Below are positions 3,001 through 46,831 of a DNA stretch of 64,000 nucleotides, in pieces. Every line of letters starts with the position of its first letter. The stretch's first letter is position 1. The stretch covers positions 38,047-102,046 of the forward strand of contig JAQTMG010000002.1 of the NCBI GenBank assembly GCA_028714455.1, given 5' to 3'. The notes beneath the pieces are model-generated. The model was not told the DNA's origin, searched no databases, and worked only from the letters and a program-made list of their open reading frames with translations. The position numbers and the translations under genes were made by a program. Source of the DNA: Patescibacteria group bacterium. Lineage in GTDB: Bacteria; Patescibacteriota; Patescibacteriia; CAIXNZ01.

Positions 3001-3777
3001 ATGAACACATGTTGCGTTAAATTTAAAGAGAATCCGGTTCTCTTTATCTTAATCACTGTTCTTCTAATTTGCGTGATCGCGGTTTTGATTTTTTGGGCCA
3101 TGAATCTGTACAAACAGAATTATTACATTGGCAAAAACCCCCAGATTGATCGCACCATTACAATCATGGGAGAGGGTAAGGTGACGGCGATTCCTGACAT
3201 AGCTAATGTCACGCTGGGAATGCAAAATACCAACCTAAATATTCAGGTTGCCCAGAAGAAAAATTCAGATACCATGAATGCTCTTATCGCGCAGTTGACC
3301 GCGCTTGGCATATCAAAAGATGATATTCAGACGACAAATTACAATATCTATCCGCAGTATGATTATTCAAGCTCCAGACAAACCTTAACCGGTTATACTG
3401 TCTCTCAAGATGTGACAGTTAAAATCAGACAAACTGATAAAGTTGACCAGGTTTTGAAAATCGCCGGCGATTTGAAGCTTAATCAAGTTGGTGGTTTGTC
3501 TTTTGCCATTGATAATCCCGAAACATACAGACAACAAGCCAGAATTTTGGCCCTGCAAAATGCCAAGGACAAGGCCGAAGCGCTTGCCAAAATTATGGGC
3601 GTGAATTTGGGTAAGGTAATTTCATTTGCAGAAAGTTCAAATGGCGTTACTCCTTATCCGATGATGGTTAGCGATAAAGCAGTTTCCGGAATTGGCGGAG
3701 GCGGGACAGCGCCGTCTGTTTCAGTTGGCAGCCAGGATATCATCATAGACGCTTCAATAGTTTACGAGTTAAATTAA
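3001..3777 (+). CDS. SIMPL-domain (DUF541/YggE-like) secreted protein
   Basis: N-terminal TM helix; TITIMGEGKVTAIPDIANVTLGM and a DVTVKIRQ pattern typical of DUF541. Confidence 0.7.
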   Translation: MNTCCVKFKENPVLFILITVLLICVIAVLIFWAMNLYKQNYYIGKNPQIDRTITIMGEGKVTAIPDIANVTLGMQNTNLNIQVAQKKNSDTMNALIAQLTALGISKDDIQTTNYNIYPQYDYSSSRQTLTGYTVSQDVTVKIRQTDKVDQVLKIAGDLKLNQVGGLSFAIDNPETYRQQARILALQNAKDKAEALAKIMGVNLGKVISFAESSNGVTPYPMMVSDKAVSGIGGGGTAPSVSVGSQDIIIDASIVYELN

Positions 3778-10782: not shown

Positions 10783-11211
10783 ATGATAATGCTCGATGTC
10801 GCAACGGTAGAATTTATGGCCTTTCGCCTGGCGAGAGAAATTATGAAATATAATGAGCCTATCCCAGATTTCGGCACTCGATTTCCTAATATTTTAGAGA
10901 GTTGTCTTGTTACGCCATTCCAAACTTTCGACGGAAAAGATCTATATGAAGGCTTGATCGGGAAATCAAGCTTTTTATTTTATTTAATGATTAAGAATCA
11001 TCCTTTTCAGAATGGCAACAAGAGAATCGCGATAACCACACTTTTAACTTTTTTATATTTAAACAGTAAGTGGATTGAGGTGGATAGCAAAGAATTATAT
11101 AATTTTGCAAGATGGGTGGCGGAAAGCAATCCGAAATTAAAAAATGAAACTGTTAAAGCGGTAGAAAAATTTATCGAGACATATTTAGTTGATTTTAGTT
11201 TGGCAAAATAA
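10783..11211 (+). CDS. doc: Doc/Fic-family toxin (death-on-curing)
   Basis: HPFQNGNKRIA matches the Doc variant of the Fic motif HxFx(D/N)GNKR. Confidence 0.75.
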   Translation: MIMLDVATVEFMAFRLAREIMKYNEPIPDFGTRFPNILESCLVTPFQTFDGKDLYEGLIGKSSFLFYLMIKNHPFQNGNKRIAITTLLTFLYLNSKWIEVDSKELYNFARWVAESNPKLKNETVKAVEKFIETYLVDFSLAK

Positions 11212-13971: not shown

Positions 13972-14550
13972 ATGATTGATAAAAAATTTTTCACCAAATT
14001 AAAAAAAGAATACGATTCTTATGACATTGGCCGCCGCATAATCATACGACACTCCAATGATATCTTGAAATTTGCCAAGCAGGCGATTTTCGCCCTGCAT
14101 CGGGAAAATCTGAAAGAGGCCGACAAAACTTTAGCCGAAGCCGAAAAACTTTTTGAGTATTTGCAGACGAAAATTGACGAGGAGGAGGGTTTAAAATATG
14201 AGGGCGCTTATTTAGCGGCAGTCGAAGAATTTATTGAGGCTAAACTTTTTGAGCAATATATTAAGACCGGGAAAATTGGCGAGATTAAGGGTTATAAATT
14301 TGAAGCCGAAAGTTATCTGGGCGGCGTTTGCGATTTCACGGGCGAAGTTGTGCGCCGAGCCATATTTTTAGCTACTCATCGCCGTTATAAAGAAGTTGAG
14401 AAGTGCCAGCAAGTCATTGATGAGGTTATTCACGAATTGATTCAATTTAATTTGATCGGCAGTTTAAGGCCGAAGTATGATCAGGCCAAAAATAATTTGA
14501 GGAAAATTGAGGAGATTATGTACGATCTGGAAATAAAGAAAAGAAATTAG
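13972..14550 (+). CDS. translin-family protein (tentative)
   Basis: YLGGVCDFTGEVVRR resembles the translin C-terminal motif YLxGxADxTGELxR; 192 aa. Confidence 0.45.
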   Translation: MIDKKFFTKLKKEYDSYDIGRRIIIRHSNDILKFAKQAIFALHRENLKEADKTLAEAEKLFEYLQTKIDEEEGLKYEGAYLAAVEEFIEAKLFEQYIKTGKIGEIKGYKFEAESYLGGVCDFTGEVVRRAIFLATHRRYKEVEKCQQVIDEVIHELIQFNLIGSLRPKYDQAKNNLRKIEEIMYDLEIKKRN

Positions 14551-14610
14551 CCCTTCGACTTAGCTTAAGGCAGGATTAAGCACGGAAATTAGGTAGAAAA
14601 AATATAGAAA

Positions 14611-14640
14611 AAGGGCTCGACGATTGCGTCGAGCCCTTTG
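14611..14640. terminator. strong hairpin AAGGGCTCGACGATTGCGTCGAGCCCTT with flanking A/T runs (bidirectional)
   Basis: 12-bp perfect stem. Confidence 0.7.
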
Positions 14641-14643
14641 AGT

Positions 14644-15804
14644 TTATCTGGCAGTACAGATGGCCTTTTGGTGATCGTTGATGACGGCCAGGTCACCGCC
14701 CATTGCTGTCTGCAGAGCGTTCAGGGCGCCGTAGATAACGCCGATTTTGATATTGGCGTCATTCTGCTTATCCCTCCAGTTGTATTTCTTGCCATAGATC
14801 TTGATCAGATCGCAGATCAGGTGGTAGAAGGTGTTCAGCTTGTTCGGGCCAGTGCAGTAGACCTTTTTCAGCTTGGCCAGTTCTTCCTTAACTTTGGCGC
14901 GCAGTTCTTCATTCGATTTGAAACGGGGGATAAGCGCTTCTAGCCATTCGCAAAGACCCTCGGTTGTGAATTGAATTTTTTGCGATTCCGCAACCGGTTT
15001 TTGAATCTCAACGAGTTTTTGTTTGGCTTCGGCGCTGTTGGTCACTGATGCTTCGGCGGGTTGTTTGATAACTACTTCTTTGACCTCGACAGTTTCAATA
15101 ACTTTTTGCGTGGGCAAATCGGGCAGTGAAAGGACTTCCAGCTCAACCTTTTCCCCAAGGTCGAATTCTTTTGGCGTTATCTCTTGAAGTTTTCGAGCGA
15201 AGTGGGTATCAATTAGCGTGAGTAGGTAGGACGGCAGTTTGCTCATGCTCTGATGAATGTGATTTTTGAGTTCATCGGCCGAGCATTTGATTTGCCGTTC
15301 GATGAGCAGATTTACCACTGCCTGAAGCTCCTGATAAAAAACAAATTCAAGACGATCTGTTCTGCTAAAGTCCTGCATTTCCCGAGAGTCAGACATAAAC
15401 TCATCGATGAAAGCGCGAATGACCATGCCCCTATCTATTTCTTTCCTGGATTCCGCATCTGATGACTCCCTCTCTTTAATTAACTGATCTAGGGTGTTTA
15501 TCTGACCCCACATATAAAGGTCCTGGTCATCCTCAAACACGCTGGTAAATATGTCGGGGTTGGTGATGTTGTAGCCCTTTAGTAAAATTCCCGCGAGCTC
15601 AAGCGCCTCCCACATAGTCACCCAGCCGCCGTAATTGATAAGGTCTTGCTTAACCTTATCCCAGACGCGCCTGAAAGTATAAATAGCGAGCTTCTGGTCA
15701 TCATATTGTAGATCATTGAGGATTCTAGCGGCGTCACCATCTTCCATCCTGTCGCTGAAAAACTGTCCGAAAAGTTCGCGTCTGCTTCTATTGGTAAGTG
15801 CCAT
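14644..15804 (-). CDS. hypothetical protein, high-GC orphan (386 aa)
   Basis: GC visibly ~50% against an AT-rich background; conserved TTGACA-N17-TAAATT promoter at 15907-15912 (minus) and a ~70-nt leader with AAGGAGG. Confidence 0.5.
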   Translation of the reverse strand: MALTNRSRRELFGQFFSDRMEDGDAARILNDLQYDDQKLAIYTFRRVWDKVKQDLINYGGWVTMWEALELAGILLKGYNITNPDIFTSVFEDDQDLYMWGQINTLDQLIKERESSDAESRKEIDRGMVIRAFIDEFMSDSREMQDFSRTDRLEFVFYQELQAVVNLLIERQIKCSADELKNHIHQSMSKLPSYLLTLIDTHFARKLQEITPKEFDLGEKVELEVLSLPDLPTQKVIETVEVKEVVIKQPAEASVTNSAEAKQKLVEIQKPVAESQKIQFTTEGLCEWLEALIPRFKSNEELRAKVKEELAKLKKVYCTGPNKLNTFYHLICDLIKIYGKKYNWRDKQNDANIKIGVIYGALNALQTAMGGDLAVINDHQKAICTAR

Positions 15805-15999: not shown

Positions 16000-16347
16000 A
16001 TGGCAGAATTAACAAAAATAAGTCCCGACAGGATCGCTGGCGTAGACAAAGAAAAACTAATTATCTTGGAAGACATTTCAGATGACATAAGGAAGGTGCT
16101 GTTGAGCGCAGAGGCATTGGAAAAAGCGCAACTACTAGAGGTTGATAATCCGTTAAAGAGAAGAGAGGTGCTTGGTGACTGTCTAGTTAAATATCAGAAA
16201 GGTCTAGATATGATTAGGGAGCAAATTCGAAATAACACAAGATGGAAACTGCCTAAAGAGAGTTTAGCCAACGAAGAAATATATATCACGGAACGCATGG
16301 ATTACCTTGAGGGGATTTTGCACAAATTGCCAAAGCAGGTGCATTAA
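16000..16347 (+). CDS. hypothetical protein (115 aa)
   Basis: Intact ORF, first gene of the rSAM neighbourhood. Confidence 0.4.
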   Translation: MAELTKISPDRIAGVDKEKLIILEDISDDIRKVLLSAEALEKAQLLEVDNPLKRREVLGDCLVKYQKGLDMIREQIRNNTRWKLPKESLANEEIYITERMDYLEGILHKLPKQVH

Positions 16348-16361
16348 TAATTTAAGCTGAT

Positions 16362-16922
16362 TTGATGGACGAGAGGATAGAAAAATTACTTTTGGGGCTC
16401 GAAGAATTAAATAAAGCCGGCGGCCAGTGGAATATTTCTCACACGACTGGCCAGTTTTTGTATGATTTGATTATCGATAAAAAACCAGAAGTAATTGTTG
16501 AAGTCGGCGCTTCCAACGGCTATTCCACTATCTGGTTGGCTGTGGCTGCCAGAAAAATTAATGCCAAAGTCATAACCTTTGAATTCGTGCCAGAAAAAGT
16601 TCGTGATTTGGTTTCTAATTTGCAAAAAGCAGGACTCATTCAATACGTACAAACAGTTCCGGATGATGCCAATAAAAGATTGGGGGAGTTGGAAGAAAAA
16701 ATTGATTTTGTTTTTTTAGATGGCAGAAAAAATGAATATCTGCAACAACTAAAAATGCTTGAACCAAAATTAAATTCAGGTGCGATAATTGCTGCTGATA
16801 ATGTGATTTCACATAAACACGCGCTAGAAGATTATCTTTATTATGTTACCAATGAAAATAAATATCGGAGCGAGCTAAAAGATATCGGGACTGGACTGGA
16901 AATTAGTTATTTATTATCTTGA
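16362..16922 (+). CDS. class I SAM-dependent O-methyltransferase (family 3, COG4122-like)
   Basis: VIVEVGASNGYST, IDFVFLDGRKNEY, AADNV. Confidence 0.75.
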   Translation: MMDERIEKLLLGLEELNKAGGQWNISHTTGQFLYDLIIDKKPEVIVEVGASNGYSTIWLAVAARKINAKVITFEFVPEKVRDLVSNLQKAGLIQYVQTVPDDANKRLGELEEKIDFVFLDGRKNEYLQQLKMLEPKLNSGAIIAADNVISHKHALEDYLYYVTNENKYRSELKDIGTGLEISYLLS

Positions 16923-16980
16923 CACACTTCAATATAGTTGTTAACTTTAAGTTAATGAGTCACATAAAAAGGAGGGAAAA

Positions 16981-17313
16981 ATGGGAGAGCAAAAGAAAGA
17001 ACCGACTATTGAAGAGCTCATGAAAATCATTGAGGATCAAGGAGAGCAGCTCAAAGCACTTAGGGAAGAAGTGGAAAAACTTAAAAATCGGCCTCCCCGG
17101 ATTGAGGAGCATCACCATCACAACGAAGGAGGCGGAGGAGACCTAGTAATTGAGTATGGTCTGCCCAATGCGCCACGTAAACATCTGATTATTTTCAAAA
17201 ACGGCACCGTGTCCATCTGTGACGGTGAGGAACTAGCTTCAAATCGCATCAAGCAAGCCAAGCCAGGTGAAATTGAAAGCGTTTGGGAAATGAAAAAGCG
17301 GACAGTAAAATAA
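16981..17313 (+). CDS. small protein, candidate precursor/partner of the adjacent rSAM-SPASM enzyme
   Basis: Strong SD GGAGGGAAAAATG; coiled-coil N-terminus, then EEHHHHNEGGGG; own terminator at 17324-17351. Confidence 0.45.
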   Translation: MGEQKKEPTIEELMKIIEDQGEQLKALREEVEKLKNRPPRIEEHHHHNEGGGGDLVIEYGLPNAPRKHLIIFKNGTVSICDGEELASNRIKQAKPGEIESVWEMKKRTVK

Positions 17314-17323
17314 TTGCTATGAA

Positions 17324-17351
17324 GGGCTCGAATTAACCGAGCCCTTTTTCT
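17324..17351 (+). terminator. hairpin GGGCTCGAATTAACCGAGCCC + TTTTTC
   Basis: Perfect 7-bp stem. Confidence 0.65.
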
Positions 17352-17412
17352 TTACAAAAAATTTATTATATGTTAAGTTAGGATATAAATTTGTTCCTTG
17401 AAAGGAGAAAAA

Positions 17413-18396
17413 ATGGAAAGATATATTCCAAAGCATTGCGTTTGGGAAACGACGTTAAGATGTAATTTGAAATGCTTGCATTGCGGTTCAAGAGCAGGCA
17501 AATGTCGCGATCAAGAGCTAAATCATGACGAAGCCATCTTGTTGATCAATGACTTGAAAGAACTTGGTTGCGAGAGAATTATTCTTGGCGGCGGCGAGCC
17601 GCTACTGCGCAAAGATTTTGCCAATTTGGTTTGGCATATTAAAGAAATGGGTATGAGACCCTGCTTGATTTCGAATGGTTTGATTTTGCCCCAGAAAATT
17701 AAATTGCTGGCAAGTTTGCCGCTTTATGCCGTAGCCATTAGCTTAGACGGTTTAGAAAAAACGCATAATTATTTGCGGCAGAATCAAAAAAGTTTTAGCC
17801 AGGTCATTAAGTCGTTTCACTCTCTATCTAATTTGTTTATTGATGTTTATGCCATTAGCCAGATTAATCGTTTCAATTTTTCAGAACTGGAAGATCTTTA
17901 TGAACTTATTTCGCATTTGCATATTGATGGCTGGCAAATCCAATTGACCAATGACATGGGCAGGGCCGAGGATTTAAAGGATTTTAGGCTTAGTCGCAAA
18001 CAGCTCGTTAAATTGGTTGATTTCATTGTCAGGTACAAAAATGGTCCGCTGAAGATTTATCCTGGCGATGACATTGGCTATTATTGCCGCGGCCAATTTC
18101 AATTCCAAGGTTGTCAGGGTGGAATTCAAGTTATTGGCGTTGAGGCCAATGGCAATGTCAAGCCATGTTTAAGCATGCAAAAAGACAACCGATTTGTCGG
18201 CGGAAACATTCGCGAAAAAAGTCTGAAAGAAATTTGGCACGATCCCAATTTCGCGGCCATCAATCGTAAAGCACACAAGCTCGCTGGTAAATGCGCTTCT
18301 TGCGCACATGCCCGCCAATGTCGGGGTGGTTGCGTGGGCACGGTCATGTCATTTGATTCTTTGGGAACTTATCCATTTTGCATAAGGACAAGGTAA
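17413..18396 (+). CDS. radical SAM / SPASM-domain protein (peptide- or cofactor-modifying maturase family)
   Basis: CNLKCLHC (Cx3Cx2C); C-terminal CQGG...KPC...CASCAHARQCRGGC SPASM cysteines; likely start at the MERYIPK ATG, 6 nt after AGGAG. Confidence 0.8.
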   Translation: MERYIPKHCVWETTLRCNLKCLHCGSRAGKCRDQELNHDEAILLINDLKELGCERIILGGGEPLLRKDFANLVWHIKEMGMRPCLISNGLILPQKIKLLASLPLYAVAISLDGLEKTHNYLRQNQKSFSQVIKSFHSLSNLFIDVYAISQINRFNFSELEDLYELISHLHIDGWQIQLTNDMGRAEDLKDFRLSRKQLVKLVDFIVRYKNGPLKIYPGDDIGYYCRGQFQFQGCQGGIQVIGVEANGNVKPCLSMQKDNRFVGGNIREKSLKEIWHDPNFAAINRKAHKLAGKCASCAHARQCRGGCVGTVMSFDSLGTYPFCIRTR

Positions 18397-18416
18397 AATC
18401 TTGTCCTTTTTTATTT
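18385..18416 (+). terminator. hairpin AGGACAAGGTAAAATCTTGTCCT + T-run
   Basis: Overlaps the stop codon. Confidence 0.65.
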
Positions 18417-18917: not shown

Positions 18918-19499
18918 ATGGCTATTAATAATATCGAAATTGAAATACAAGTTAATATTGGAAATATCAAACCACTATTGAATTTTCTTGAGTTAAGGGC
19001 GATTTTTCAGGCCGAAAAAAGACAGATTGATGAATATTTTTCCCCAATCCATGATGATTTTTTAGCAGTCAGGCCAGTTAGGGAATGGCTACGTTTGCGC
19101 GATGCCAACGGCAAATGTTCATTAAATTATAAAAATTGGCATTTTGATGCTAGCGGAAAAAGCAACTATTGCGATGAATTTGAAACCGGAATTGACAAAT
19201 TTGAGCCGGTTAAGAAGATGTTGAATGTTCTCAATTTTAAATCAATCATTACGGTTGAAAAGTTGAGAAAAATTTGGACTTTTAAGGACTATGAAATTGC
19301 CATAGATTCCGTTAAGAATTTGGGTGATTTTGTGGAGATTGAATATATTGGGAATGATGATCGTGTTGAACCGCAAAAAATAACAGATGAAATGATTAAC
19401 TTTTTGAAAAATTTAGAATGCGGAAAAATTACTAGAAACTATGTTGGGTATCCTTTTCAATTGCTTTTTCCTGATGAAGTAAAATACGATATTTTATGA
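18918..19499 (+). CDS. CYTH-domain protein (CyaB / thiamine-triphosphatase-like)
   Basis: N-terminal EIEIQ beta-strand pattern; 193 aa. Confidence 0.6.
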   Translation: MAINNIEIEIQVNIGNIKPLLNFLELRAIFQAEKRQIDEYFSPIHDDFLAVRPVREWLRLRDANGKCSLNYKNWHFDASGKSNYCDEFETGIDKFEPVKKMLNVLNFKSIITVEKLRKIWTFKDYEIAIDSVKNLGDFVEIEYIGNDDRVEPQKITDEMINFLKNLECGKITRNYVGYPFQLLFPDEVKYDIL

Positions 19500-20188
19500 G
19501 AAAATTTAACCAGACAATTGTAATTTCAGTTGGCGGATCATTAATTTGTCCCGAGAGTATTGATGTGGATTTTTTAAAAGATTTTAAAAAGGTTATTTTA
19601 GATTACATCAAAGAAGATAATCGGGTGATTTTGGTTGCCGGTGGAGGAAAAATTTGCCGAAAATATAATGAGGCAGTCAAACAATTAGAAGATAATTTAT
19701 TAGCCGAACAACTCGATGCCATGGGAATTAGAGCCACAAAATTAAATGCCGAGCTGGTCAGATTGGCTTTTGGCGAATTAGCTTATAATAAAATTTTAGA
19801 TGCACCAGATGAAAAAGTTATTAGCGATAAACAAGTTATTGTGGCTGGCGGCTGGAAACCTGGCGCCTCTTCAGACAATATGGCCGTGAATTTGGCTAAA
19901 TTTTTTGGCGCTAAAAAAGTCATTAACTTGAGCAATATAGATTATGTTTATGACAAAAATCCCAAAGAGTTTAAAGACGCCAAGCCGATTCCGAAAATGA
20001 CTTGGCCTGAATTTTTTCAACTAGTGGGTGAAGATTGGAAACCTGGCATGAACGCGCCATTTGATCCGATTGCCAGCAAATTAGCGCAAGAATTAAAATT
20101 GGAAGTGGCTGTTTTAAACGGAAAGAATACTAATAATCTTATGAGTTATTTGAAAGAGGAAAAATTTATAGGAACGATAATATCTTAA
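19496..20188 (+). CDS. pyrH: amino-acid-kinase family protein, probably UMP kinase
   Basis: VISVGGSLI, ILVAGGG, LDAMGIRAT, NIDYVYDKNP. Confidence 0.55.
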   Translation: MRKFNQTIVISVGGSLICPESIDVDFLKDFKKVILDYIKEDNRVILVAGGGKICRKYNEAVKQLEDNLLAEQLDAMGIRATKLNAELVRLAFGELAYNKILDAPDEKVISDKQVIVAGGWKPGASSDNMAVNLAKFFGAKKVINLSNIDYVYDKNPKEFKDAKPIPKMTWPEFFQLVGEDWKPGMNAPFDPIASKLAQELKLEVAVLNGKNTNNLMSYLKEEKFIGTIIS

Positions 20189-20196
20189 GAAAAAAT

Positions 20197-21078
20197 TTAT
20201 AACAATGAGTTAGCATCAAATTTCGGCGTGTAATTTTTGTCAGCCGATTCCAGTTCCTGAAAGTAACCGCCAGCAAATTTTAAATCTTCATAATATTTTT
20301 TAATCTCATTATATTCTACGGATGAGATTTTTTTATTTAGTTCAGGATATTGATCGGCTAAATACATCGGGTAGTATTGGCTCATTAAACTAACCCAAAC
20401 TTTATCGCCAAAATTTTCCTTGATTGATTTCAGAATCCGTTTGGAATCTTCAATCTGGTCCGGCAAAATTAAGTGTCTGATGATAACGCCTTTTTTGATT
20501 AAGCCGTTTGAACCTAGTTTAACCTCGCCAATCTGATTTACCATCTCGGTAATGGCGTTAAGGGCGGTTTTAAGGTAGTTTGGGGCCTTGGAATAGCGAA
20601 TGGCTAATTCATTATTATAATATTTAAAATCAGGCAAATAAATGTCGACCAAACCGTTTAGTTGTTTTAAGGTTTCAACTTTTTCATAAGCATTGGAATT
20701 CCAAACGATTGGCAATTTTGTCTTGGCTTTTATTTCAGGTAGTAGCTTAATTAGCAGATGAGAATAGGGTGTCGGGGTGACAAAGTTTAAATTATGAGCG
20801 CCCTGTTTTTTTAATTTTAAACAAAGATCGATAAAATCATTCTCGCTAACTATTTTTCCTTGTCCCAATTGGGAAATTTGGTAATTTTGGCAATAAACAC
20901 ACTTGAGGTTGCAATGGGAAAAGAAAATCGCGCCAGAACCAATAGCGCCGGAAATGCATGGTTCTTCCCATTTATGAAGCTGAATATGGGCAATTTTAAA
21001 ATCAGCCGGGGCCTGGCAGACACCGAAAGAGTTTATTCTATCGGCACTACAGTTGTGCGGGCAAAGGTTACATTTCAT
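20197..21078 (-). CDS. radical SAM protein, PflX-like (COG1313)
   Basis: N-terminal CNLCPHNC...GVC plus CNLKCVYC. Confidence 0.7.
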   Translation of the reverse strand: MKCNLCPHNCSADRINSFGVCQAPADFKIAHIQLHKWEEPCISGAIGSGAIFFSHCNLKCVYCQNYQISQLGQGKIVSENDFIDLCLKLKKQGAHNLNFVTPTPYSHLLIKLLPEIKAKTKLPIVWNSNAYEKVETLKQLNGLVDIYLPDFKYYNNELAIRYSKAPNYLKTALNAITEMVNQIGEVKLGSNGLIKKGVIIRHLILPDQIEDSKRILKSIKENFGDKVWVSLMSQYYPMYLADQYPELNKKISSVEYNEIKKYYEDLKFAGGYFQELESADKNYTPKFDANSLL

Positions 21079-21219: not shown

Positions 21220-22722
21220 ATGGGAAAAGGAAGTAGGGGTAATAGAGGGAGAGGAAAGTTCAGTCTGCCGCCTTCGTTGAGAGCTCTTCCGCCCAGATTT
21301 GACAGAAAGCCAGATCTTGTTTTGGTAAGTGAACCTAAGTCGAGGATATTCAAACCGCTGAAGATAGACAGTTCGCCAAAAAAAGTTTTTATTTTGGATA
21401 CCTCGGTTCTTATCCACGATCCTGAATCAATCGAATATCTGGCCGGTAACGGCAATCTGGTGGTGGTCTTGTCCTGCGTTATTCAGGAGCTGGATCATTT
21501 AAAGATGTCGGAGAATGATGCCGTGGCGCGGGCATCTCGGGAAGCGACCCGAAAAATGGAAAAATATCAGTTGAGAGGTAATTGCCGGCGCGGCGTAAAA
21601 GCCGACAGAGGCGGTTACATCATTTTCGTGGAAGCCGATTTGGATAATCTTTTTGTGGCCGATTCGATCTTGATTGAATACGCCCGATCGCAAGTCATCA
21701 AGGAATTAAGGGCGCAGTCGGTCATCATCGTCAGTAAAGACACCAACTTGCGCTTGGCGGCCAGAACCAAGGGCGTAACCGCGGAAGATTACAACACTGA
21801 CAAGGTATCGAATCCCGAGAGCTTGTTGCCCGGCTTCTCTGAATTTAAAGTTCCCCTGAATGAGGTAGAGTTTAAAAAAGGAGAATGCGGTCGTGAAAAA
21901 GAAAGGAAATTTGTCTTGATGCTGGACGACAGTATCCTCGCGCAGCACATTGACGTGAACAAGCTCAAGGAAAATAACTGCTGTAAAATAATTCTGGCCA
22001 ATGGAAATGTATTGTATACGATTTTCAAGAAAAGCCTGGGCGCCTTTTCGCTTTTTCACAGAGATTTCAAAAGGATAAAGCCGAAAAATGACGAACAGAC
22101 ATTTGCTCTGGCCCTGCTTTTCGACCCGACCATAGAGCTGGTGGCTTTGCCGGGTCCAGCCGGCACGGGCAAAACTTTACTGTCGCTTTTGGCGGGCTAT
22201 GTACAGCTTGACGATCTTTATCGCAAAATACTAGTGCTTCGCCCGATTGAGACAGTGGGCCGAGATCTCGGTTCTTTGCCCGGCGACCAGAGTGAAAAAT
22301 TCGCGCCTTGGCAGCTGCCGATTATTGACAATTTTAATTTAATTCTGGGCGTGAATGAGAATGAAAGGCCGAGGAAGGGTAGAGAAACCAGGAGTGATGA
22401 TTTTGAGCAATACAACCAGCTGGAGATTTCGCCCTACATCTATATCAGGGGCAGAAGCATAAAGGGTGAATTCATGATCGTTGACGAGGCTCAAAATATT
22501 CCGCCCAAAGATCTTAAGACAATCGTGTCCCGAGCCGGACAGAACACCAAGGTCGTGGTTATCGGTGACCCGGAACAAATCGATCACCATTATCTTGACC
22601 GGAGTTCCAACGGTTTGATCGTATTGATAAAGAAGATGATCGGCTTGCCGCTTTTTGGCTCGGTCACTTTGAAAACAAGCGAAAGGTCAGAGCTTTCTGG
22701 CCTGATAGCTAGCTTAATGTAA
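21220..22722 (+). CDS. PhoH2-type protein (N-terminal PIN domain fused to PhoH ATPase)
   Basis: VFILDTSVLIHD (PIN); GPAGTGKT Walker A; SD AAAGGAGGAAGTAATG; higher GC. Confidence 0.8.
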   Translation: MGKGSRGNRGRGKFSLPPSLRALPPRFDRKPDLVLVSEPKSRIFKPLKIDSSPKKVFILDTSVLIHDPESIEYLAGNGNLVVVLSCVIQELDHLKMSENDAVARASREATRKMEKYQLRGNCRRGVKADRGGYIIFVEADLDNLFVADSILIEYARSQVIKELRAQSVIIVSKDTNLRLAARTKGVTAEDYNTDKVSNPESLLPGFSEFKVPLNEVEFKKGECGREKERKFVLMLDDSILAQHIDVNKLKENNCCKIILANGNVLYTIFKKSLGAFSLFHRDFKRIKPKNDEQTFALALLFDPTIELVALPGPAGTGKTLLSLLAGYVQLDDLYRKILVLRPIETVGRDLGSLPGDQSEKFAPWQLPIIDNFNLILGVNENERPRKGRETRSDDFEQYNQLEISPYIYIRGRSIKGEFMIVDEAQNIPPKDLKTIVSRAGQNTKVVVIGDPEQIDHHYLDRSSNGLIVLIKKMIGLPLFGSVTLKTSERSELSGLIASLM

Positions 22723-22790: not shown

Positions 22791-22819
22791 TTGACAAAAA
22801 TTATACTCCTGCTATACTG
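22791..22819 (+). promoter_or_regulatory. promoter TTGACAAAA-N17-TATACT for the rplJ-rplL operon
   Basis: Followed by a ~200-nt leader, a possible L10 autoregulatory leader. Confidence 0.55.
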
Positions 22820-22977
22820 TATTTATAACCGCAGACAATAGGTTTTCGCAAGATGTAAATCCTATCGAGGTTGTAAAATCAATAATTGATTTTTTATCGT
22901 ATTGTCTGTGGGAAACCGCAGATTTTTTTGTTTTAGATATTGGAGATTGGTGACTGGAGATTAGCGAAAGGAAAAAT

Positions 22978-43322: not shown

Positions 43323-44807
43323 ATGATTAAAAGGTATGTTAACAAAAAAATCGAGGAAATCTGGGCACTTGGGAAAAAGTATGAGCTGTGGCTCATGCTT
43401 GAGCTGACTGTTATCAGGATCAGGTGCGCAATGGGTATGTTTCCAAAATATACCCATGAAAAAATTTGTGACGCCTTAGGTGAGATTGAATTTGGTGACA
43501 AGCAAATCGCCGAAATTGCAGAGATTGAGAAAAAGACAAAGCATGACCTCAATGCTTTTATCGAGTGGATAAAAGCACGTCTGCCCGTTGATCTTCGCAT
43601 GTACATACATTGGAAGATGACATCATATGATACTGAAGAAGCGCCGTTTAGCCTGATGCTGCTCGAATCCTTTGATCTTGTAATTCAGCAATGTGATCAT
43701 CTTTGCGACGTGCTTCATGAAATGGTCTATAAATACCGCTATGTGCCCATGCTTGGACGCACGCACGGTCAGGAAGCCAAACTCCAGTCCTTTGGTCTGC
43801 GCGCTCTGCGCTGGTACCTTGCGCTGGATGAAGCACGACAGCAGCTTCTTGATTCGCAGAAAGAAATTAAGCTTTCAAAGCTAAGCGGTGCGATCGGCAA
43901 CTACCAGGGGATCACTCCAGAAGAAGAGGACGCAGTGCTGCGTTCGCTCGGACTCAAGCCTTTTGTTGGCGCATCACAGATTATGCCTCGTATTTTGCAC
44001 CAACCTCTTGTCAATGCCTTGCTTATGATCGTGGGCAGTTTGACTCAGATTGCCGAAGATATCAGAATCGCGGCGCGCAGCGGACTGCCGCTCATGCAGG
44101 AATTTTTTGACAAGGGCCAGATGGGATCATCGGCCATGCCCCACAAAAAAAATACCATCACCTGTGAAAATCAAATCGGCACGTGGCGCATGGCCAAAGG
44201 CTATGGCAATATGCTAAGAGATTGCATGTTAACTTGGGAAGAGCGTGCTATTGAGCAATCCTGTGTCGAGCGTGTTGCCTGGCCAGATCTTTTCCATGTA
44301 GTTATGCAGTCTTTCAAAAACATGGCAAGCGTGCTCGAACGCCTGCAGGTTTTCCCAGATCATATGATGCTGGAAATCGACAACTCGCACGGCTGCTATG
44401 CCTCGGAAGAAGCAAAAGAGCTGCTCAAGGAATTTGGCCTGATCGATGAGGCTTACAAAATTGTGCAGCTCGCCGCGGCCAATGTCCATGAGCATGGCCA
44501 GGTTCTGAGCGATTACAGAAAGCAGCTGCAGGCCAGTTCGGTCGAAGGATATCCGGATATCGATGATGCTGTGCTGCTCGGCAAGCATTACCGAAGTGAA
44601 GAAGTCGACTCGATCAATCGAGTGATCTCGCAGGGCGATCTGCGCCCCGCAGAGGCGCTTGGGCACAGCGAAGAGACAGTCAGCGCCTGGAATAAAAAAC
44701 TCAAGGAAATCTTTGCTGACCCGAAAAAGCTGGAAAAGTGGAACGAGGTTTTTACCATCACCTTCCAGCTGCGTAACGAATCATTTATTTTTGAAACGCA
44801 CAAGTAA
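43323..44807 (+). CDS. purB: adenylosuccinate lyase
   Basis: N-terminal RY...IW...KYELWLMLE; fumarate-lyase signature GSSAMPHKKN; GC ~50%. Confidence 0.85.
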   Translation: MIKRYVNKKIEEIWALGKKYELWLMLELTVIRIRCAMGMFPKYTHEKICDALGEIEFGDKQIAEIAEIEKKTKHDLNAFIEWIKARLPVDLRMYIHWKMTSYDTEEAPFSLMLLESFDLVIQQCDHLCDVLHEMVYKYRYVPMLGRTHGQEAKLQSFGLRALRWYLALDEARQQLLDSQKEIKLSKLSGAIGNYQGITPEEEDAVLRSLGLKPFVGASQIMPRILHQPLVNALLMIVGSLTQIAEDIRIAARSGLPLMQEFFDKGQMGSSAMPHKKNTITCENQIGTWRMAKGYGNMLRDCMLTWEERAIEQSCVERVAWPDLFHVVMQSFKNMASVLERLQVFPDHMMLEIDNSHGCYASEEAKELLKEFGLIDEAYKIVQLAAANVHEHGQVLSDYRKQLQASSVEGYPDIDDAVLLGKHYRSEEVDSINRVISQGDLRPAEALGHSEETVSAWNKKLKEIFADPKKLEKWNEVFTITFQLRNESFIFETHK

Positions 44808-44819
44808 AAAATAAGCCCC

Positions 44820-44855
44820 CGTACCAAGTGGTAGGGGGCTTTTTAGTTTGTTCAG
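44820..44855. terminator. bidirectional hairpin AGCCCCCGTACCAAGTGGTAGGGGGCT + T-run
   Basis: Between convergent purB and purH. Confidence 0.7.
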
Positions 44856-46627
44856 TGTTTGGCAAAACCGCGGTTGATTTTGTCGACAAAGATGACTGAA
44901 AGTCCTGTCTGGCCAAAGAGCTCGATGACTTTGGGAAGTTCTTTCCCGTCAGCCACCACCACTCCGCCTTTGCAGCCCGCGTCAATCAGCAGCTCCGTGC
45001 CTTCGCGGTTGTCATATTTGGCAATAAAGAGGCTCAAACCTCCCAGCGTAGCCAATACTCCTTTCGGTTTGCCAACTTTCTGACAATAGTATGCGTATTC
45101 GATGAATTCCCCGTCTGCATTATCAATGAAATCAGACATATCTTCCAGGTTTGGTTCCGGGCTGCTTGCGTATGGGAAAAACGCATCAGAGGCAAACATG
45201 GAACCGTCCGTGTCATGTCCTGCTCGGGTCGCTCTTTCCAGGCAGAGGCGCACGCAAGTGATTCTATCCTGTTGGCCGCAACCGAGCGCGATGAGCGCGC
45301 TGTCCTTGGCCAGGGCTACGGTGTTGGAACTCGCGTTCCAACAGATTGCCCAGGCGATGAGCAGGTTTTCGAGGTCAGCAGCTTCGACGGCTGGTCCGAC
45401 AGATGTCTCGTATGAATCCATGGTTAGGACGTAAGGATAGACTCTCTGGCGCAGGAACCCGCCACGTACCGGCTTATACATCCAGGCGTCGTTCGGCAGA
45501 GTCGGGTTGATCAAGGCCGGGTTGGAAAGTAGGCGCCTTTTTTTGGCTTTCATGAGTTCGCAGGTGTTTGCGGAAAATTCAGGCGCGATGATCAGGTCAA
45601 GACCCCAACGCTCGCGGCCGAGATTGAAATCGGCCGGCGGCTTGTGCAGGGCCTTGCCGAGTTCGTCACTGATAGGGAAGTTGGTGATGACCTCGCCGCC
45701 CATGACAGCGACTTTGTCGCCGATGAGCGCTTTGAAAATGGCTCGTGCCGGATCATGCCAGTCGATGGCCGCACCACATGGGTTGCCGTGTTTGCCGGCA
45801 ATGACGATGTAGGGCACTTTGCCGAAATTCCGGCGAAATGCCTCGACCAACACGCACATAATCTGGAGTACGCCGTTGCCGTCGGCCATGGCAATGTAGC
45901 TGGGATCACCGACCTCGACTTTGAATTTGTCCAGAGCCAGCGGATCGTCATTGCCAAAGGAAAAAAGCGTGGCCGGATTTTGGCATTTGTTCTCGCCATA
46001 GGCCAGATCGAGCGCTTTTTTGCCCACATTTCCGTCGATATCACCGTCGCTGTGATAGCGCGCCGAATCCAGGCAATATTTGGCGACTTCGCCTTCTGCC
46101 TTGGCGCGCAGGCGCTGAATGCTTTCGGGCTTGAGTTCGTTGTTGTTGGCCCGAAGTTCGTCCAGCACCCAGCCTCTGTCCGCCGGGTCGCAGATGACGA
46201 TGCGACCGCCTTTGGCAGCCGAACGCACCATGGTCGGCCCGCCGATGTCAGTCATCTCAATGACCGATTCAATGGTTGCATCTGGCTTGGCGATGGCGTT
46301 AGCCAGCGGATAAAAATCGCAGCAGACCAGATCGATGTAGGGCAGCCCGAGATTTTCCATTTCTTCCAGGTCAATATTATAACGTGCCAGCAGACTGGCA
46401 TGGAGTTCTCGCGAGAGCGTGACCACACGGTGACCCAGGATTGCTTTGCCACCGACTAATTCGGCCACATCAGTGACTTTGAGACCAGCTTCTTTTAGAA
46501 CCTTGGCCGTGCCGCCCGAAGAAAGAATTCTCCAGCCCATTATGCTTAGATCTTGGGCAAACCCCTTAATTCCGGCTTTGTTGAAAACCGAGATCAAAGC
46601 AAACTTATCTCCTTTTTCAAAAATCAT
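44852..46627 (-). CDS. purH: bifunctional AICAR transformylase / IMP cyclohydrolase
   Basis: N-terminal MGS-like ALISVFNKAGI...LSSGGTAK...GHRVVTLS; 591 aa; high GC. Confidence 0.85.
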   Translation of the reverse strand: MIFEKGDKFALISVFNKAGIKGFAQDLSIMGWRILSSGGTAKVLKEAGLKVTDVAELVGGKAILGHRVVTLSRELHASLLARYNIDLEEMENLGLPYIDLVCCDFYPLANAIAKPDATIESVIEMTDIGGPTMVRSAAKGGRIVICDPADRGWVLDELRANNNELKPESIQRLRAKAEGEVAKYCLDSARYHSDGDIDGNVGKKALDLAYGENKCQNPATLFSFGNDDPLALDKFKVEVGDPSYIAMADGNGVLQIMCVLVEAFRRNFGKVPYIVIAGKHGNPCGAAIDWHDPARAIFKALIGDKVAVMGGEVITNFPISDELGKALHKPPADFNLGRERWGLDLIIAPEFSANTCELMKAKKRRLLSNPALINPTLPNDAWMYKPVRGGFLRQRVYPYVLTMDSYETSVGPAVEAADLENLLIAWAICWNASSNTVALAKDSALIALGCGQQDRITCVRLCLERATRAGHDTDGSMFASDAFFPYASSPEPNLEDMSDFIDNADGEFIEYAYYCQKVGKPKGVLATLGGLSLFIAKYDNREGTELLIDAGCKGGVVVADGKELPKVIELFGQTGLSVIFVDKINRGFAKH

Positions 46628-46755
46628 TGTCCCTCCTTTTGGTTTTGATTTAGTTTTCCAAACACTTTATATTTTAACTTTAGTTTTTAGCTAAAGATTG
46701 TAAAGAACCGATGGCTGTACCTTAAACAAAATTTTGATAAATGTCAATGTTTATA

Positions 46756-46784
46756 TTGACAAAACACATTAGAGTTGGTAAGGT
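46756..46784 (+). promoter_or_regulatory. conserved promoter TTGACAAAA-N-TAAGGT
   Basis: Spacer 17. Confidence 0.5.
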
Positions 46785-46831
46785 CATTTCAGATTTTGTT
46801 CTATAAAAAAAGGAAAAAAGGAGGAAAAAGA

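What the first reader, a model, noticed from the sequence alone, without database searches (positions are those of the whole stretch)
16000..18396. Radical SAM/SPASM enzyme with adjacent small proteins and an O-methyltransferase: candidate peptide- or cofactor-modification cluster
The ORF at 17413-18396 has Cx3Cx2C plus a C-terminal SPASM-type cysteine cluster, the architecture of RiPP maturases, anSME and PqqE. A 110-aa strongly translated ORF with its own terminator sits directly upstream; it has a coiled-coil N-terminus, then HHHH and GGGG, and a single Cys. Upstream of that are a family-3 O-methyltransferase and a 115-aa hypothetical, all co-directional. No annotated substrate is apparent, so the small proteins are the obvious candidates.
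Basis: partly seen in the sequence, partly recalled or inferred. Interest (0 to 1): 0.6.

Follow-up and report, generated by a model that had tools for sequence, protein, structure and literature searches.

The report
Rare radical-SAM enzyme and partner protein
A radical SAM/SPASM enzyme in this small-genome (Patescibacteria) bacterium is almost always encoded next to a small protein with a previously undescribed ~55-residue domain, which is probably the protein it modifies; the pair is very rare and uncharacterised.

Summary
Window 17413-18396 encodes a 327-aa radical SAM enzyme with CX3CX2C and a full seven-Cys SPASM domain. A well-translated 110-aa ORF with its own terminator sits just upstream, preceded by a class-I O-methyltransferase and a 115-aa ORF. 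The enzyme reaches no curated family cut-off; its nearest families and folds are peptide- or protein-modifying SPASM enzymes. The 110-aa ORF is the real partner. Its C-terminal ~55 residues (Y-G-L-P-x-A-P-R, a beta-beta-alpha-beta core, then W-E-M-K-K-R-T) form a domain with no Pfam, NCBIfam or PDB match. An exhaustive profile search of 1.84 billion proteins found only 11 clusters. In 9 checked loci, plus 2 inferred, the gene lies directly upstream of an enzyme of this clade (52-83% identical; outgroups at most 44%). This holds in Patescibacteria and in high-GC Elusimicrobiota-like contigs, where the two genes overlap by 4 bp. The N-terminal part varies (coiled coil, MshEN domain, membrane helices), and the gene is duplicated in tandem in three loci. 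The methyltransferase and the 115-aa ORF occur only in close relatives and are not core. Best reading (about 0.55): the small protein is the enzyme's substrate, modified inside the cell. The chemistry is unknown.

The parts
16981..17313 (+). Gene for the 110-aa small protein. It consists of an N-terminal coiled coil, a His4/Gly4 linker and the conserved C-terminal domain. It is the proposed substrate of the rSAM enzyme.
   Evidence: The ORF and its AAAGGAGGG ribosome-binding site are seen. Homologues lie directly upstream of the orthologous rSAM in L001, L003, L004/5, L006-9/L020, L011, L016, L017 and L018/19.
17128..17310 (+). The conserved ~55-60-aa domain: Y-G-L-P-x-A-P-R flank, beta-beta-alpha-beta core, W-E-M-K-K-R-T tail.
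   Evidence: Alignments A3/A4 have invariant Y10, P13, A15, R17, W53 and R58. The AF2 model has mean pLDDT 81.7, a core above 90, and less ordered flanks. It matches nothing in Pfam, NCBIfam or PDB. Only 11 clusters were found in 1.84e9 proteins.
17321..17347 (+). Intrinsic terminator after the small-protein gene.
   Evidence: The scan reports 10 pairs, 6 of them GC, plus a T-run. An equivalent hairpin plus T-run follows the last small-protein gene in L001, L003/16/17, L004 and L011.
17351..17379 (+). Promoter-like element for the rSAM gene: TTTACA, a 17-nt spacer ending in TGT, then TAAGTT.
   Evidence: Read from the sequence. The pattern CTTtaCA-N14-ATGnTAAgTT recurs at the same place in L001, L003, L004 and L011. 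Function is inferred; the consensus scan did not list it.
17413..18396 (+). Radical SAM/SPASM enzyme of 327 aa with three predicted Fe-S clusters and no RRE domain.
   Evidence: Pfam and NCBIfam scans. Invariant cysteines. The AF2 model has pLDDT 90.8, and its top folds are PqqE, SkfB, SuiB (TMq 0.80), CteB and anSME. It forms a tight clade at 52-83% identity, with outgroups at most 44%.
18384..18408 (+). Terminator after the rSAM gene.
16362..16922 (+). Class-I SAM-dependent (family-3-like) O-methyltransferase. It is a lineage-specific neighbour and not a core part.
   Evidence: Pfam hits. Found at 73-84% identity only in L001, L004/5 and L011. Absent from L003, L006, L018 and L002.
16000..16347 (+). 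115-aa hypothetical ORF, a neighbour that is not a core part.
   Evidence: No family hit. The only homologue is in L001, at 27% identity and E 1e-5.

Best explanation
The core system has two genes. The small protein is made in excess from its own transcription unit. Its N-terminal part differs between lineages: a coiled coil here, an MshEN domain or membrane helices elsewhere. This part probably sets oligomeric state, location or regulatory input. A flexible His/Gly-rich linker leads to the conserved C-terminal module.

The rSAM/SPASM enzyme has no peptide-recognition (RRE) domain of its own. I propose it docks on the small beta-beta-alpha-beta core and uses its CX3CX2C cluster to cleave SAM. 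The resulting 5'-deoxyadenosyl radical would remove a hydrogen from an sp3 carbon in one of the two invariant flanking motifs, Y-G-L-P-x-A-P-R or W-E-M-K-K-R-T. The two auxiliary SPASM clusters would take up the electron. The most likely outcome is an intramolecular crosslink to the invariant Tyr or Trp.

The modified protein stays in the cell, because no protease or exporter is present.

Shown: the anatomy, the conserved pairing, the fold class and the rarity. Inferred: the substrate role. Speculative: the site and the chemistry.
For: 1. Pairing. The small-domain gene lies immediately upstream of a clade rSAM in 9 verified loci: window, L001, L003, L004/5/15, L006-9/L020, L011, L016, L017 and L018/19. 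Two more pairs are inferred from shared contig sizes: P0130 with P0004, and P0125 with P0011.
2. The pairing survives transfer between phyla. The high-GC Elusimicrobiota-like enzymes are 62-69% identical to the window enzyme. Other Patescibacteria are only 54-58% identical, a level that tracks their housekeeping genes. In the high-GC loci the two genes overlap by 4 bp.
3. Substrate-like behaviour. There are tandem, diverged copies in L004, L011 and L001. A conserved terminator follows the small gene and a conserved promoter-like element precedes the rSAM gene. The small gene has a strong ribosome-binding site.
4. Four of the six invariant residues (Y10, P13, A15, R17) lie in the N-terminal flank, and the last (R58) lies in the C-terminal tail, both of which AF2 leaves less ordered. 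W53 sits in the last strand of the core.
5. Enzyme class. Its nearest NCBIfam families are peptide maturases: nif11-class 3, the GDL-peptide maturase, StsB and WgkB. Its nearest solved sequences and folds are SkfB, PqqE, SuiB, CteB and anSME.
6. The closest outgroup examined (P0015, 41% identity) sits in a typical peptide-modification operon with two tandem small Cys-rich ORFs, a second rSAM and an ABC exporter.
7. Published rSAM crosslinks join an aromatic side chain to an sp3 carbon within 3-5-residue motifs, including Lys-Trp, Arg-Tyr and Trp-Arg (PMC11851443).
Against: - No experiment or contact-level model links the two proteins.
- The layout is the reverse of classical precursors: the N-terminus varies and the C-terminus is a conserved, folded domain. 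Fusions to MshEN or membrane helices look more like a modular signalling or adaptor protein.
- Two exceptions exist. L002 has the enzyme without the domain within 13 kb, and an unrelated 71-aa Cys-rich ORF abuts its start codon. L010 (Elusimicrobiota) has the MshEN-domain protein without the enzyme within 8 kb on either side. These two may come from one genome, since both are from the same metagenome and both are deposited as Elusimicrobiota MAG sequence.
- L012's downstream gene is not an rSAM.
- The only Cys is not conserved, so thioether chemistry is excluded.
- No specific target residue can be named.
Confidence: 0.55

Rival explanations
1. The small protein is not the substrate. It is an accessory subunit: an adaptor, chaperone or regulator comparable to PqqD or MftB, or a sensor-coupled regulator. 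Its constant C-terminal domain binds the rSAM enzyme. Its variable N-terminal module (coiled coil, MshEN, membrane anchor) localises or controls the enzyme, which acts on a substrate encoded elsewhere.
For: - The architecture is modular, with one constant domain and swappable N-terminal modules that include MshEN (PF05157, E 1e-17 to 1e-20) and two membrane helices.
- The enzyme lacks its own recognition domain.
- In L002 the enzyme sits beside a GGDEF response regulator and a MotAB/FliG-kinase set. This hints at a cyclic-di-GMP theme that would fit MshEN.
- In L002 and L010 the genes can be unlinked.
Against: - Tandem, diverged duplicates (L004, L011, L001) are unusual for a chaperone.
- The terminator between the genes and the strong ribosome-binding site imply that the small protein is in excess over the enzyme.
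- No third conserved gene or small ORF accompanies the pair. In L006, L007 and L020 the pair is flanked by opposite-strand genes.
- The fold is not the winged-helix RRE fold.
- Invariant residues lie in flexible flanks rather than on a folded surface.
Confidence: 0.25
2. The 115-aa ORF, the O-methyltransferase, the 110-aa protein and the rSAM enzyme form one multi-step pathway, with O-methylation as a tailoring step.
For: All four genes are co-directional and closely spaced. The order methyltransferase, small protein, rSAM is kept in the window, L001, L004/5 and L011, with the methyltransferase 73-84% identical.
Against: - These loci also share YceG, Translin, RlmH and L10/L12 in the same order, so the synteny reflects relatedness.
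- The methyltransferase is missing in L003 (a NUDIX gene takes its place), L018 and all high-GC loci, yet the pair persists there.
- The 115-aa ORF is found only in L001, at 27% identity.
- A terminator and promoters split the region into separate transcription units.
Confidence: 0.12
3. The pair makes an exported peptide natural product, a classical RiPP. The C-terminal region would be cut off and secreted as an antibiotic or signal.
For: The nearest enzyme families and the Zixibacteria outgroup operon are RiPP-like. Precursor-like tandem copies are present.
Against: - No peptidase or ABC/MFS exporter is conserved near the pair in any locus.
- The conserved region is a predicted folded domain.
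- The region is highly conserved rather than hypervariable.
- MshEN and membrane-anchored versions are hard to reconcile with a leader peptide.
Confidence: 0.08
4. The enzyme is a housekeeping cofactor or haem enzyme (AhbD/NirJ-like), a sulfatase maturase (anSME) or another small-molecule enzyme. Its adjacency to the small ORF would then have no functional meaning.
For: There are moderate hits to NirJ2, AhbD and MoaA models, and fold similarity to anSME and BlsE. The locus sits among housekeeping genes.
Against: - Every such model scores far below its cut-off (142-144 against 500, and similar) and below the peptide-maturase models.
- The adjacency is kept across phyla with translational coupling.
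- The enzyme clade is as rare as the small domain, about a dozen clusters each. This does not fit a housekeeping role.
Confidence: 0.04

Closest known systems
NCBIfam TIGR04103 (nif11-class peptide radical SAM maturase 3) and TIGR03913 (GDL-motif peptide-associated radical SAM/SPASM maturase)
   Same: These are the best-scoring curated families (E 1e-62 and 3e-60), aligning over nearly the whole enzyme. They share the rSAM core plus full SPASM domain, lack an N-terminal RRE, and are encoded beside their peptide substrates.
   Different: The scores are 212 and 204 bits against cut-offs of 725 and 592. The window enzyme lacks the ~70-125-residue C-terminal extension of those models, since the match ends at model position 343/412 and 352/477. 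The partner has no Nif11 leader and matches no NCBIfam peptide model. A 'GDL' tripeptide occurs only in the window and L001 copies and is not conserved.
StrB/SuiB (streptide Lys-Trp crosslinking) and related rSAM cyclophane synthases (WgkB, RrrB, WprB)
   Same: SuiB is the best structural match by TM-score (TMq 0.80). It has three Fe-S clusters. Its chemistry joins an aromatic ring to an sp3 carbon in short motifs (PMC11851443). The partner here has invariant Tyr and Trp residues next to invariant or basic Arg/Lys.
   Different: Sequence identity is about 19-20%. The WgkB model scores 110 bits against a cut-off of 650. SuiB has an N-terminal RRE that is missing here. Its substrates are short, exported peptides controlled by quorum sensing, not a folded domain fused to coiled-coil, MshEN or membrane modules.
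Anaerobic sulfatase-maturating enzyme (anSME/AtsB)
   Same: It is a SPASM enzyme of similar size without an RRE. It modifies a protein rather than a leader-containing peptide, and its product stays a functional protein (PMC10114670). Fold match TMq is 0.73-0.75. From memory, the spacing of the invariant residues P13-x-A15-x-R17-x-x-L-L resembles the sulfatase motif (C/S)-x-(P/A)-x-R-x-x-L-L.
   Different: No anSME model appears among the 25 best of 76 NCBIfam hits that were shown. The target-position Cys/Ser is replaced by an invariant Pro. No sulfatase was seen among the genes examined near the locus.
PqqE/PqqD/PqqA and MftC/MftB/MftA (peptide-derived cofactor systems)
   Same: PqqE is the top Foldseek hit (E 8.5e-19). 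In these systems the rSAM/SPASM enzyme is encoded next to small partner genes, and Tyr-centred chemistry produces an intracellular product.
   Different: PqqE scores 91.5 bits against a cut-off of 381, and MftC 129 against 265. No PqqA/B/C/D or MftA/B/D/E/F genes are present. The partner is a single ~55-aa domain, not a 20-30-aa peptide plus a separate chaperone.
Uncharacterised Zixibacteria/Myxococcota rSAM/SPASM clade (P0012-P0120; example CP070756 locus L021)
   Same: These are the nearest sequence relatives outside the clade, at 36-44% identity. They have the same domain layout, also reach no NCBIfam cut-off, and lie downstream of tandem small ORFs.
   Different: They are about 30-50 aa longer. 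In L021 they are accompanied by a second rSAM and an ABC exporter, with short Cys-rich precursors. None carries the YGLP...WEMKKRT domain, and the profile search found no further members.

Membership tests
Radical SAM superfamily (PF04055) | A CX3CX2C motif for the SAM-binding [4Fe-4S] cluster, and a Pfam score above the gathering cut-off. | tested here: met
   C17-x3-C21-x2-C24 is invariant in 46 homologues. PF04055 scores 76.2 bits against a cut-off of 29.5.
SPASM-domain subfamily (PF13186 / TIGR04085-type) | A C-terminal seven-Cys motif for two auxiliary clusters, including CX2CX5CX3C. | tested here: met
   PF13186 scores 48.5 bits against a cut-off of 21.5. C234, C252, C294-x2-C297-x5-C303-x3-C307 and C323 are invariant. 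The fold matches SPASM enzymes. Cluster content itself cannot be tested here.
TIGR04103 nif11-class peptide rSAM maturase 3 | A whole-protein score of at least 725 bits. | tested here: not met
   211.9 bits.
TIGR04103 nif11-class peptide rSAM maturase 3 | An adjacent precursor with a Nif11-type leader. | tested here: not met
   The adjacent 110-aa protein matches no NCBIfam or Pfam family above threshold.
TIGR03913 GDL-motif peptide-associated maturase | A score of at least 591.75 bits, and an associated GDL-motif peptide. | tested here: not met
   203.7 bits. GDL is present in only 2 of 16 partner sequences and is not conserved.
Anaerobic sulfatase-maturating enzyme | Equivalog-level similarity and a sulfatase substrate with (C/S)-x-(P/A)-x-R. 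| tested here: not met
   No anSME model appears among the 25 best of 76 NCBIfam hits that were shown. The partner has Pro at the Cys/Ser position. The rest of the genome was not searched for sulfatases.
Haem / haem d1 rSAM enzymes (AhbC/AhbD/NirJ) | An equivalog cut-off of 500-650 bits. | tested here: not met
   122-144 bits.
PqqE / MftC | Equivalog cut-offs of 381 and 265 bits, plus PqqA/D or MftA/B neighbours. | tested here: not met
   91.5 and 129.1 bits. No such neighbours are present.
Classical RiPP biosynthetic cluster | A precursor gene adjacent to the modifying enzyme. | tested here: met
   Nine verified loci.
Classical RiPP biosynthetic cluster | A conserved leader with a variable core, plus a leader peptidase and/or exporter. 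| tested here: not met
   The N-terminus varies and the C-terminus is conserved. No peptidase or exporter is conserved in any locus.
Classical RiPP biosynthetic cluster | The precursor is covalently modified by the enzyme. | not testable with these tools
   This needs co-expression and mass spectrometry.
MshEN (PF05157) cyclic-di-GMP receptors (fused versions only: P0130, P0131, P0132, L010) | A Pfam hit above the cut-off. | tested here: met
   61.5-72.9 bits against a cut-off of 23.1. This does not apply to the window protein, which has a coiled coil instead.
MshEN (PF05157) cyclic-di-GMP receptors (fused versions only) | An intact c-di-GMP-binding motif and actual binding. | not tested
   The Pfam match covers residues 65-149, and the N-terminal motif region was inspected only by eye.

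The most novel reading that the evidence does not exclude
The pair is a new kind of radical-SAM protein-modification system. A small, portable ~55-residue domain receives an rSAM-installed crosslink or protein-derived cofactor and works inside the cell as the output end of modular proteins (coiled-coil, membrane-anchored, or MshEN / possibly c-di-GMP-sensing). This would be RiPP-type chemistry used to build a functional protein domain rather than a secreted natural product. It has been kept in reduced Patescibacteria genomes and exchanged with Elusimicrobiota.
Probability: 0.2. Interest if true: 0.75.

Novelty: new variant of a known kind. Interest (0 to 1): 0.55.

Why it matters
rSAM/SPASM enzymes are a major source of new peptide chemistry, but nearly all studied cases make exported peptides in cultivable bacteria. 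This clade has no curated family, and its partner is an undescribed domain. The pair is retained at a fixed chromosomal position in very small Patescibacteria genomes and was exchanged with another phylum.

If the small protein is the substrate, the system would be a compact two-gene route to a new post-translational modification of a protein domain. The natural His-run makes the substrate easy to purify, so this is directly testable by co-expression. It could also show what such chemistry does for an organism with a minimal genome. If the partner turns out to be a regulator, it would instead be a new way of controlling an rSAM enzyme.

Tried and rejected
- Word-based homologue search with the 110-aa protein alone found only itself. 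Homologues appeared only after reading the loci of enzyme relatives and searching with an alignment.
No interface prediction was possible, and model coordinates are not exposed.
- Foldseek against PDB with the small-domain model gave nothing significant. The best E-value was 0.86, with weak hits that are mostly beta-grasp-like.
- A profile of the domain against PDB sequences gave nothing, with best E 0.33.
- Pfam at E up to 1 gave only coiled-coil noise for the N-termini.
- The GTDB genome scan gave a single locus, the metagenome scan four and the viral scan none.
- PADLOC gave only generic viperin-core similarity (84 bits, rSAM core only) and no defence system. A defence reading was rejected.
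- L012 and L013 were too short or uninformative.
- Tetranucleotide comparison cannot tell whether L002 and L010 are one genome. All the high-GC loci correlate at 0.96-0.99.
- Literature searches for Patescibacteria + SPASM and for MshEN + radical SAM found no paper.
Full report
**Source and observation**

The window is part of a Patescibacteria (CPR) MAG. The enzyme and the 110-aa protein are 100% identical to NCBI MDD5341062.1 and MDD5341061.1, 'Patescibacteria group bacterium', on a 188,654-bp contig. G+C is about 0.39 around the locus.

- A 115-aa ORF at 16000-16347.
- A methyltransferase at 16362-16922, matching Methyltransf_24 at 7.8e-13 and Methyltransf_3 at 5.3e-12.
- A 110-aa ORF at 16981-17313, behind an AAAGGAGGG ribosome-binding site and followed by a GC-rich hairpin plus T-run at 17321-17347.
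- The rSAM gene at 17413-18396, with its own terminator at 18384-18408.

The enzyme has C17-x3-C21-x2-C24. Seven C-terminal cysteines, including C294-x2-C297-x5-C303-x3-C307, are invariant in 46 homologues. Pfam Radical_SAM and SPASM both score above their cut-offs.

**What the enzyme is**

No curated family claims it. The best NCBIfam models are peptide maturases:
- nif11-class 3: 212 bits against a cut-off of 725.
- GDL-peptide maturase: 204 against 592.
- TIGR04133: 170 against 425.

The housekeeping options score lower still: NirJ2 and AhbD 142-144 against 500, MftC 129 against 265, and PqqE 91.5 against 381.

The nearest solved sequences are SkfB (1e-21), the SPASM part of SuiB, and PqqE. 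An AlphaFold2 model with mean pLDDT 90.8 matches PqqE, SkfB, SuiB (TMq 0.80), CteB and anSME best. The radical SAM core starts at about residue 8, so there is no N-terminal peptide-recognition (RRE) domain.

In 5.8 billion clustered proteins, only about eleven clusters are at least 52% identical to the window enzyme. The next relatives, from Zixibacteria, Myxococcota and others, drop to at most 44% and also belong to no curated family. One of them (P0015, CP070756) lies in a typical peptide-modification operon. That operon has two tandem small Cys-rich ORFs sharing MVFLIDP...A.G, a second rSAM and an ABC exporter.

**The partner**

A word-based search with the 110-aa protein found only itself. 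Reading the loci of the enzyme's close relatives showed homologues directly upstream of the enzyme:
- L001 has two copies, one truncated and one frameshifted.
- L003 has a 178-aa protein.
- L004/L005 have two tandem copies, of 113 and 105 aa.

The shared part is the C-terminal ~55-60 residues: [IV]-x-Y-[GA]-[LM]-P-x-A-x-R-x-[HQ]-L-[LI]-x-F-x-x-G ... [VI]-W-[EQA]-[ML]-[KR]-[KQ]-R-[TS]. Y10, P13, A15, R17, W53 and R58 (domain numbering) are invariant in 16 sequences.

Searches with the alignment added more members. An exhaustive HMMER search of 1.84 billion representatives returned only 11 clusters, all at E below 1e-10. The domain has no Pfam, NCBIfam, PADLOC or PDB-sequence match.

AlphaFold2 predicts a confident small beta-beta-alpha-beta core, with 10-residue block pLDDT values of 96, 93 and 95. 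The Y-G-L-P-x-A-P-R flank and the K-K-R-T tail are less ordered. Foldseek finds no significant structural relative.

The N-terminal part varies:
- Coiled coil in the window, L003, L004 and P0134.
- An MshEN/T2SSE_N domain in P0130, P0131, P0132 and L010 (PF05157, 61-73 bits).
- Two membrane helices in P0133 and L018.
- Other sequence in P0129 and P0135.

A His-rich then Gly-rich linker recurs just before the YGLP motif in the Patescibacteria copies.

**Co-occurrence**

The domain gene lies immediately upstream of a clade enzyme in nine verified loci:
- The window, L001, L003, L004/5/15, L011 (two copies), L016, L017 and L018/19 (the membrane-helix version).
- The high-GC set L006-L009 and L020, where stop and start codons overlap by 4 bp.

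Two more pairs are inferred from identical contig sizes: P0130 with P0004 (2,375 bp) and P0125 with P0011 (2,469 bp).

There are three exceptions:
- L002 has the enzyme (68-69% identical to the window's) with no domain gene within 13 kb. An unrelated 71-aa Cys-rich ORF ends exactly where the enzyme starts (TAG ATG).
- L010, an Elusimicrobiota MAG, has an MshEN-domain protein with no enzyme within 8 kb on either side.
- L012's downstream gene is not an rSAM.

L002 and L010 come from the same JGI metagenome. The NCBI copy of the L002 enzyme is also labelled Elusimicrobiota, so they may be an unlinked pair in one genome. Tetranucleotide composition is compatible with this but does not discriminate.

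**Inheritance**

Among Patescibacteria loci the pair sits at a fixed place: YceG, Translin, [genes], small protein, rSAM, RlmH, then L10 and L7/L12 further on. Enzyme identity (76, 58, 57 and 55%) falls in step with RlmH, Translin and YceG. This points to vertical descent.

The high-GC enzymes are closer to the window enzyme (62-69%) than other Patescibacteria are, and their partner domains are also of the window type (KHL...SRI...). The pair therefore moved between phyla as a unit while the N-terminal module was swapped.

The methyltransferase occurs only in the window, L001, L004/5 and L011. The 115-aa ORF occurs only in the window and L001. Both are absent where the pair persists in L003, L018 and the high-GC loci. 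They are neighbours by descent and not core parts.

**Expression layout**

In every low-GC Patescibacteria locus checked (window, L001, L003, L004, L011, L016, L017) a canonical terminator follows the last small-protein gene. In the 44%-GC locus L018, whose taxon is unassigned, no such hairpin-plus-T-run or promoter-like element was evident. In five of these loci (window, L001, L003, L004, L011), a conserved promoter-like element (CTTtaCA-N14-ATGnTAAgTT; window 17351-17379) precedes the enzyme gene. With the strong ribosome-binding site, this predicts much more small protein than enzyme. That ratio is what a substrate would show, and it is unlike what a stoichiometric subunit would show.

**Mechanism**

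- Shown: a three-cluster SPASM enzyme of the peptide/protein-modifying fold class, and a tightly co-inherited small protein with a novel domain.
- Inferred (about 0.55): the small protein is the substrate, recognised through its mini-domain because the enzyme has no RRE, and modified in one of its invariant flanks.
- Speculative (about 0.25): the product is a crosslink between the invariant Tyr or Trp and a nearby sp3 carbon. This would resemble the Lys-Trp, Arg-Tyr and Trp-Arg links made by StrB, RrrB and WprB (PMC11851443). Both flanks begin with aromatic-x-[L/M] and end in an invariant Arg.
- A lead from memory only: the P-x-A-x-R-x-x-L-L spacing mirrors the sulfatase motif read by anSME, with Pro in place of Cys/Ser.
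- Thioether chemistry is excluded because the only Cys is not conserved.
- No peptidase or exporter is conserved nearby, so the product probably stays in the cell.

The main rival (about 0.25) is that the constant domain is an enzyme-binding adaptor, with the variable N-termini bringing localisation or regulatory input such as MshEN.

**Novelty and verdict**

The general kind, an rSAM/SPASM enzyme with an adjacent small-protein partner, is well known (PMC10114670). This enzyme clade and this partner domain appear in no library or paper that I could search.

The layout is also atypical. The conserved part is a folded C-terminal domain, the N-terminal modules are swappable, there is no processing or export gene, and the system resides in reduced genomes.

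I rate it a new variant of a known kind, with interest 0.55. The 110-aa ORF should be kept as the candidate substrate, and the methyltransferase and the 115-aa ORF should be dropped from the core.

Noticed in passing
L002:5746-5961 and surroundings (L002:737-8122): In the Elusimicrobiota-type locus the clade rSAM starts immediately after the stop codon (TAG ATG) of an unrelated 71-aa Cys-rich ORF with zinc-ribbon-like CPxxG...CPAC motifs. The flanking genes are a histidine kinase fused to FliG domains, MotA/MotB, and a response regulator with a GGDEF domain.
   Followed up: partly
L021:3141-3281 and 3360-3521 (CP070756, Zixibacteria): Two tandem small ORFs share MVFLIDP(H/N)xxxA(G/S)G and have Cys-rich tails. 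They lie upstream of a 448-aa rSAM, the 41%-identical rSAM/SPASM outgroup and an ABC exporter. This looks like an undescribed RiPP-type cluster.
   Followed up: partly
L001:5308-5903: The closest relative carries one copy of the small-protein gene that stops right after the YGMPPR motif (60 aa). A second copy is split by a frameshift into 40-aa and 70-aa ORFs. This could be gene decay, an assembly error, or a version that encodes only the C-terminal domain.
   Followed up: no
window 17107-17142, and the equivalent linkers in P0123, P0125, P0127, P0129 and L001 copy 1: A His-rich run followed by a Gly-rich run recurs just before the YGLP motif in the Patescibacteria copies (HHHH..GGGG, HHHHHHGGG, HHYDEGGGGG, HEHDH, HVH, HIH). 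It may be a metal-binding or flexible linker.
   Followed up: no
window 13972-14550: A Translin-family protein (PF01997, 3.6e-22) is encoded in a bacterium. It is kept at the same position, after YceG, in L001, L003, L004, L016 and L017.
   Followed up: partly
window 19496-20188: The UMP kinase is of the archaeal type (TIGR02076 at 193 bits, above its cut-off of 158). The bacterial PyrH model scores only 52 bits against a cut-off of 244.
   Followed up: no
window 18918-19499: A CYTH / class IV adenylate cyclase (CyaB) homologue scores above its cut-off (TIGR00318 at 84 bits, cut-off 58). It lies between RlmH and the UMP kinase.
   Followed up: no
window 20197-21078 (-): A second radical SAM protein of 293 aa has no SPASM domain. 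It is weakly similar to glycyl-radical activases and NrdG, and scores below every curated cut-off.
   Followed up: no
window 14610-14639: A perfect 13-bp GC-rich hairpin with T-runs on both strands sits between the convergent Translin gene and the 386-aa hypothetical gene. It looks like a bidirectional terminator.
   Followed up: no
window 14644-15804 (-): A 386-aa hypothetical protein with no family hit is conserved at 27-32% identity, divergently upstream of the locus, in L001 and L004/5.
   Followed up: partly
window 43323-48289: A block of purine-biosynthesis genes lies in a region of raised G+C (0.48-0.52, against about 0.39 nearby). The genes are a Lyase_1 (PurB-like) gene, AICARFT/IMPCHase, and a SAICAR synthetase fused to AIR carboxylase. 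The block may have been acquired horizontally.
   Followed up: no
window 22811-22939: An Rfam L10 leader (RF00557, 52.3 bits) lies upstream of the L10 and L7/L12 genes. It is the only Rfam hit in the window, and no tRNA genes were found in the 64 kb.
   Followed up: yes
window 10783-11211 and 21220-22722: A small Fic/DOC-family protein and a PIN-PhoH fusion protein flank the wider region.
   Followed up: no
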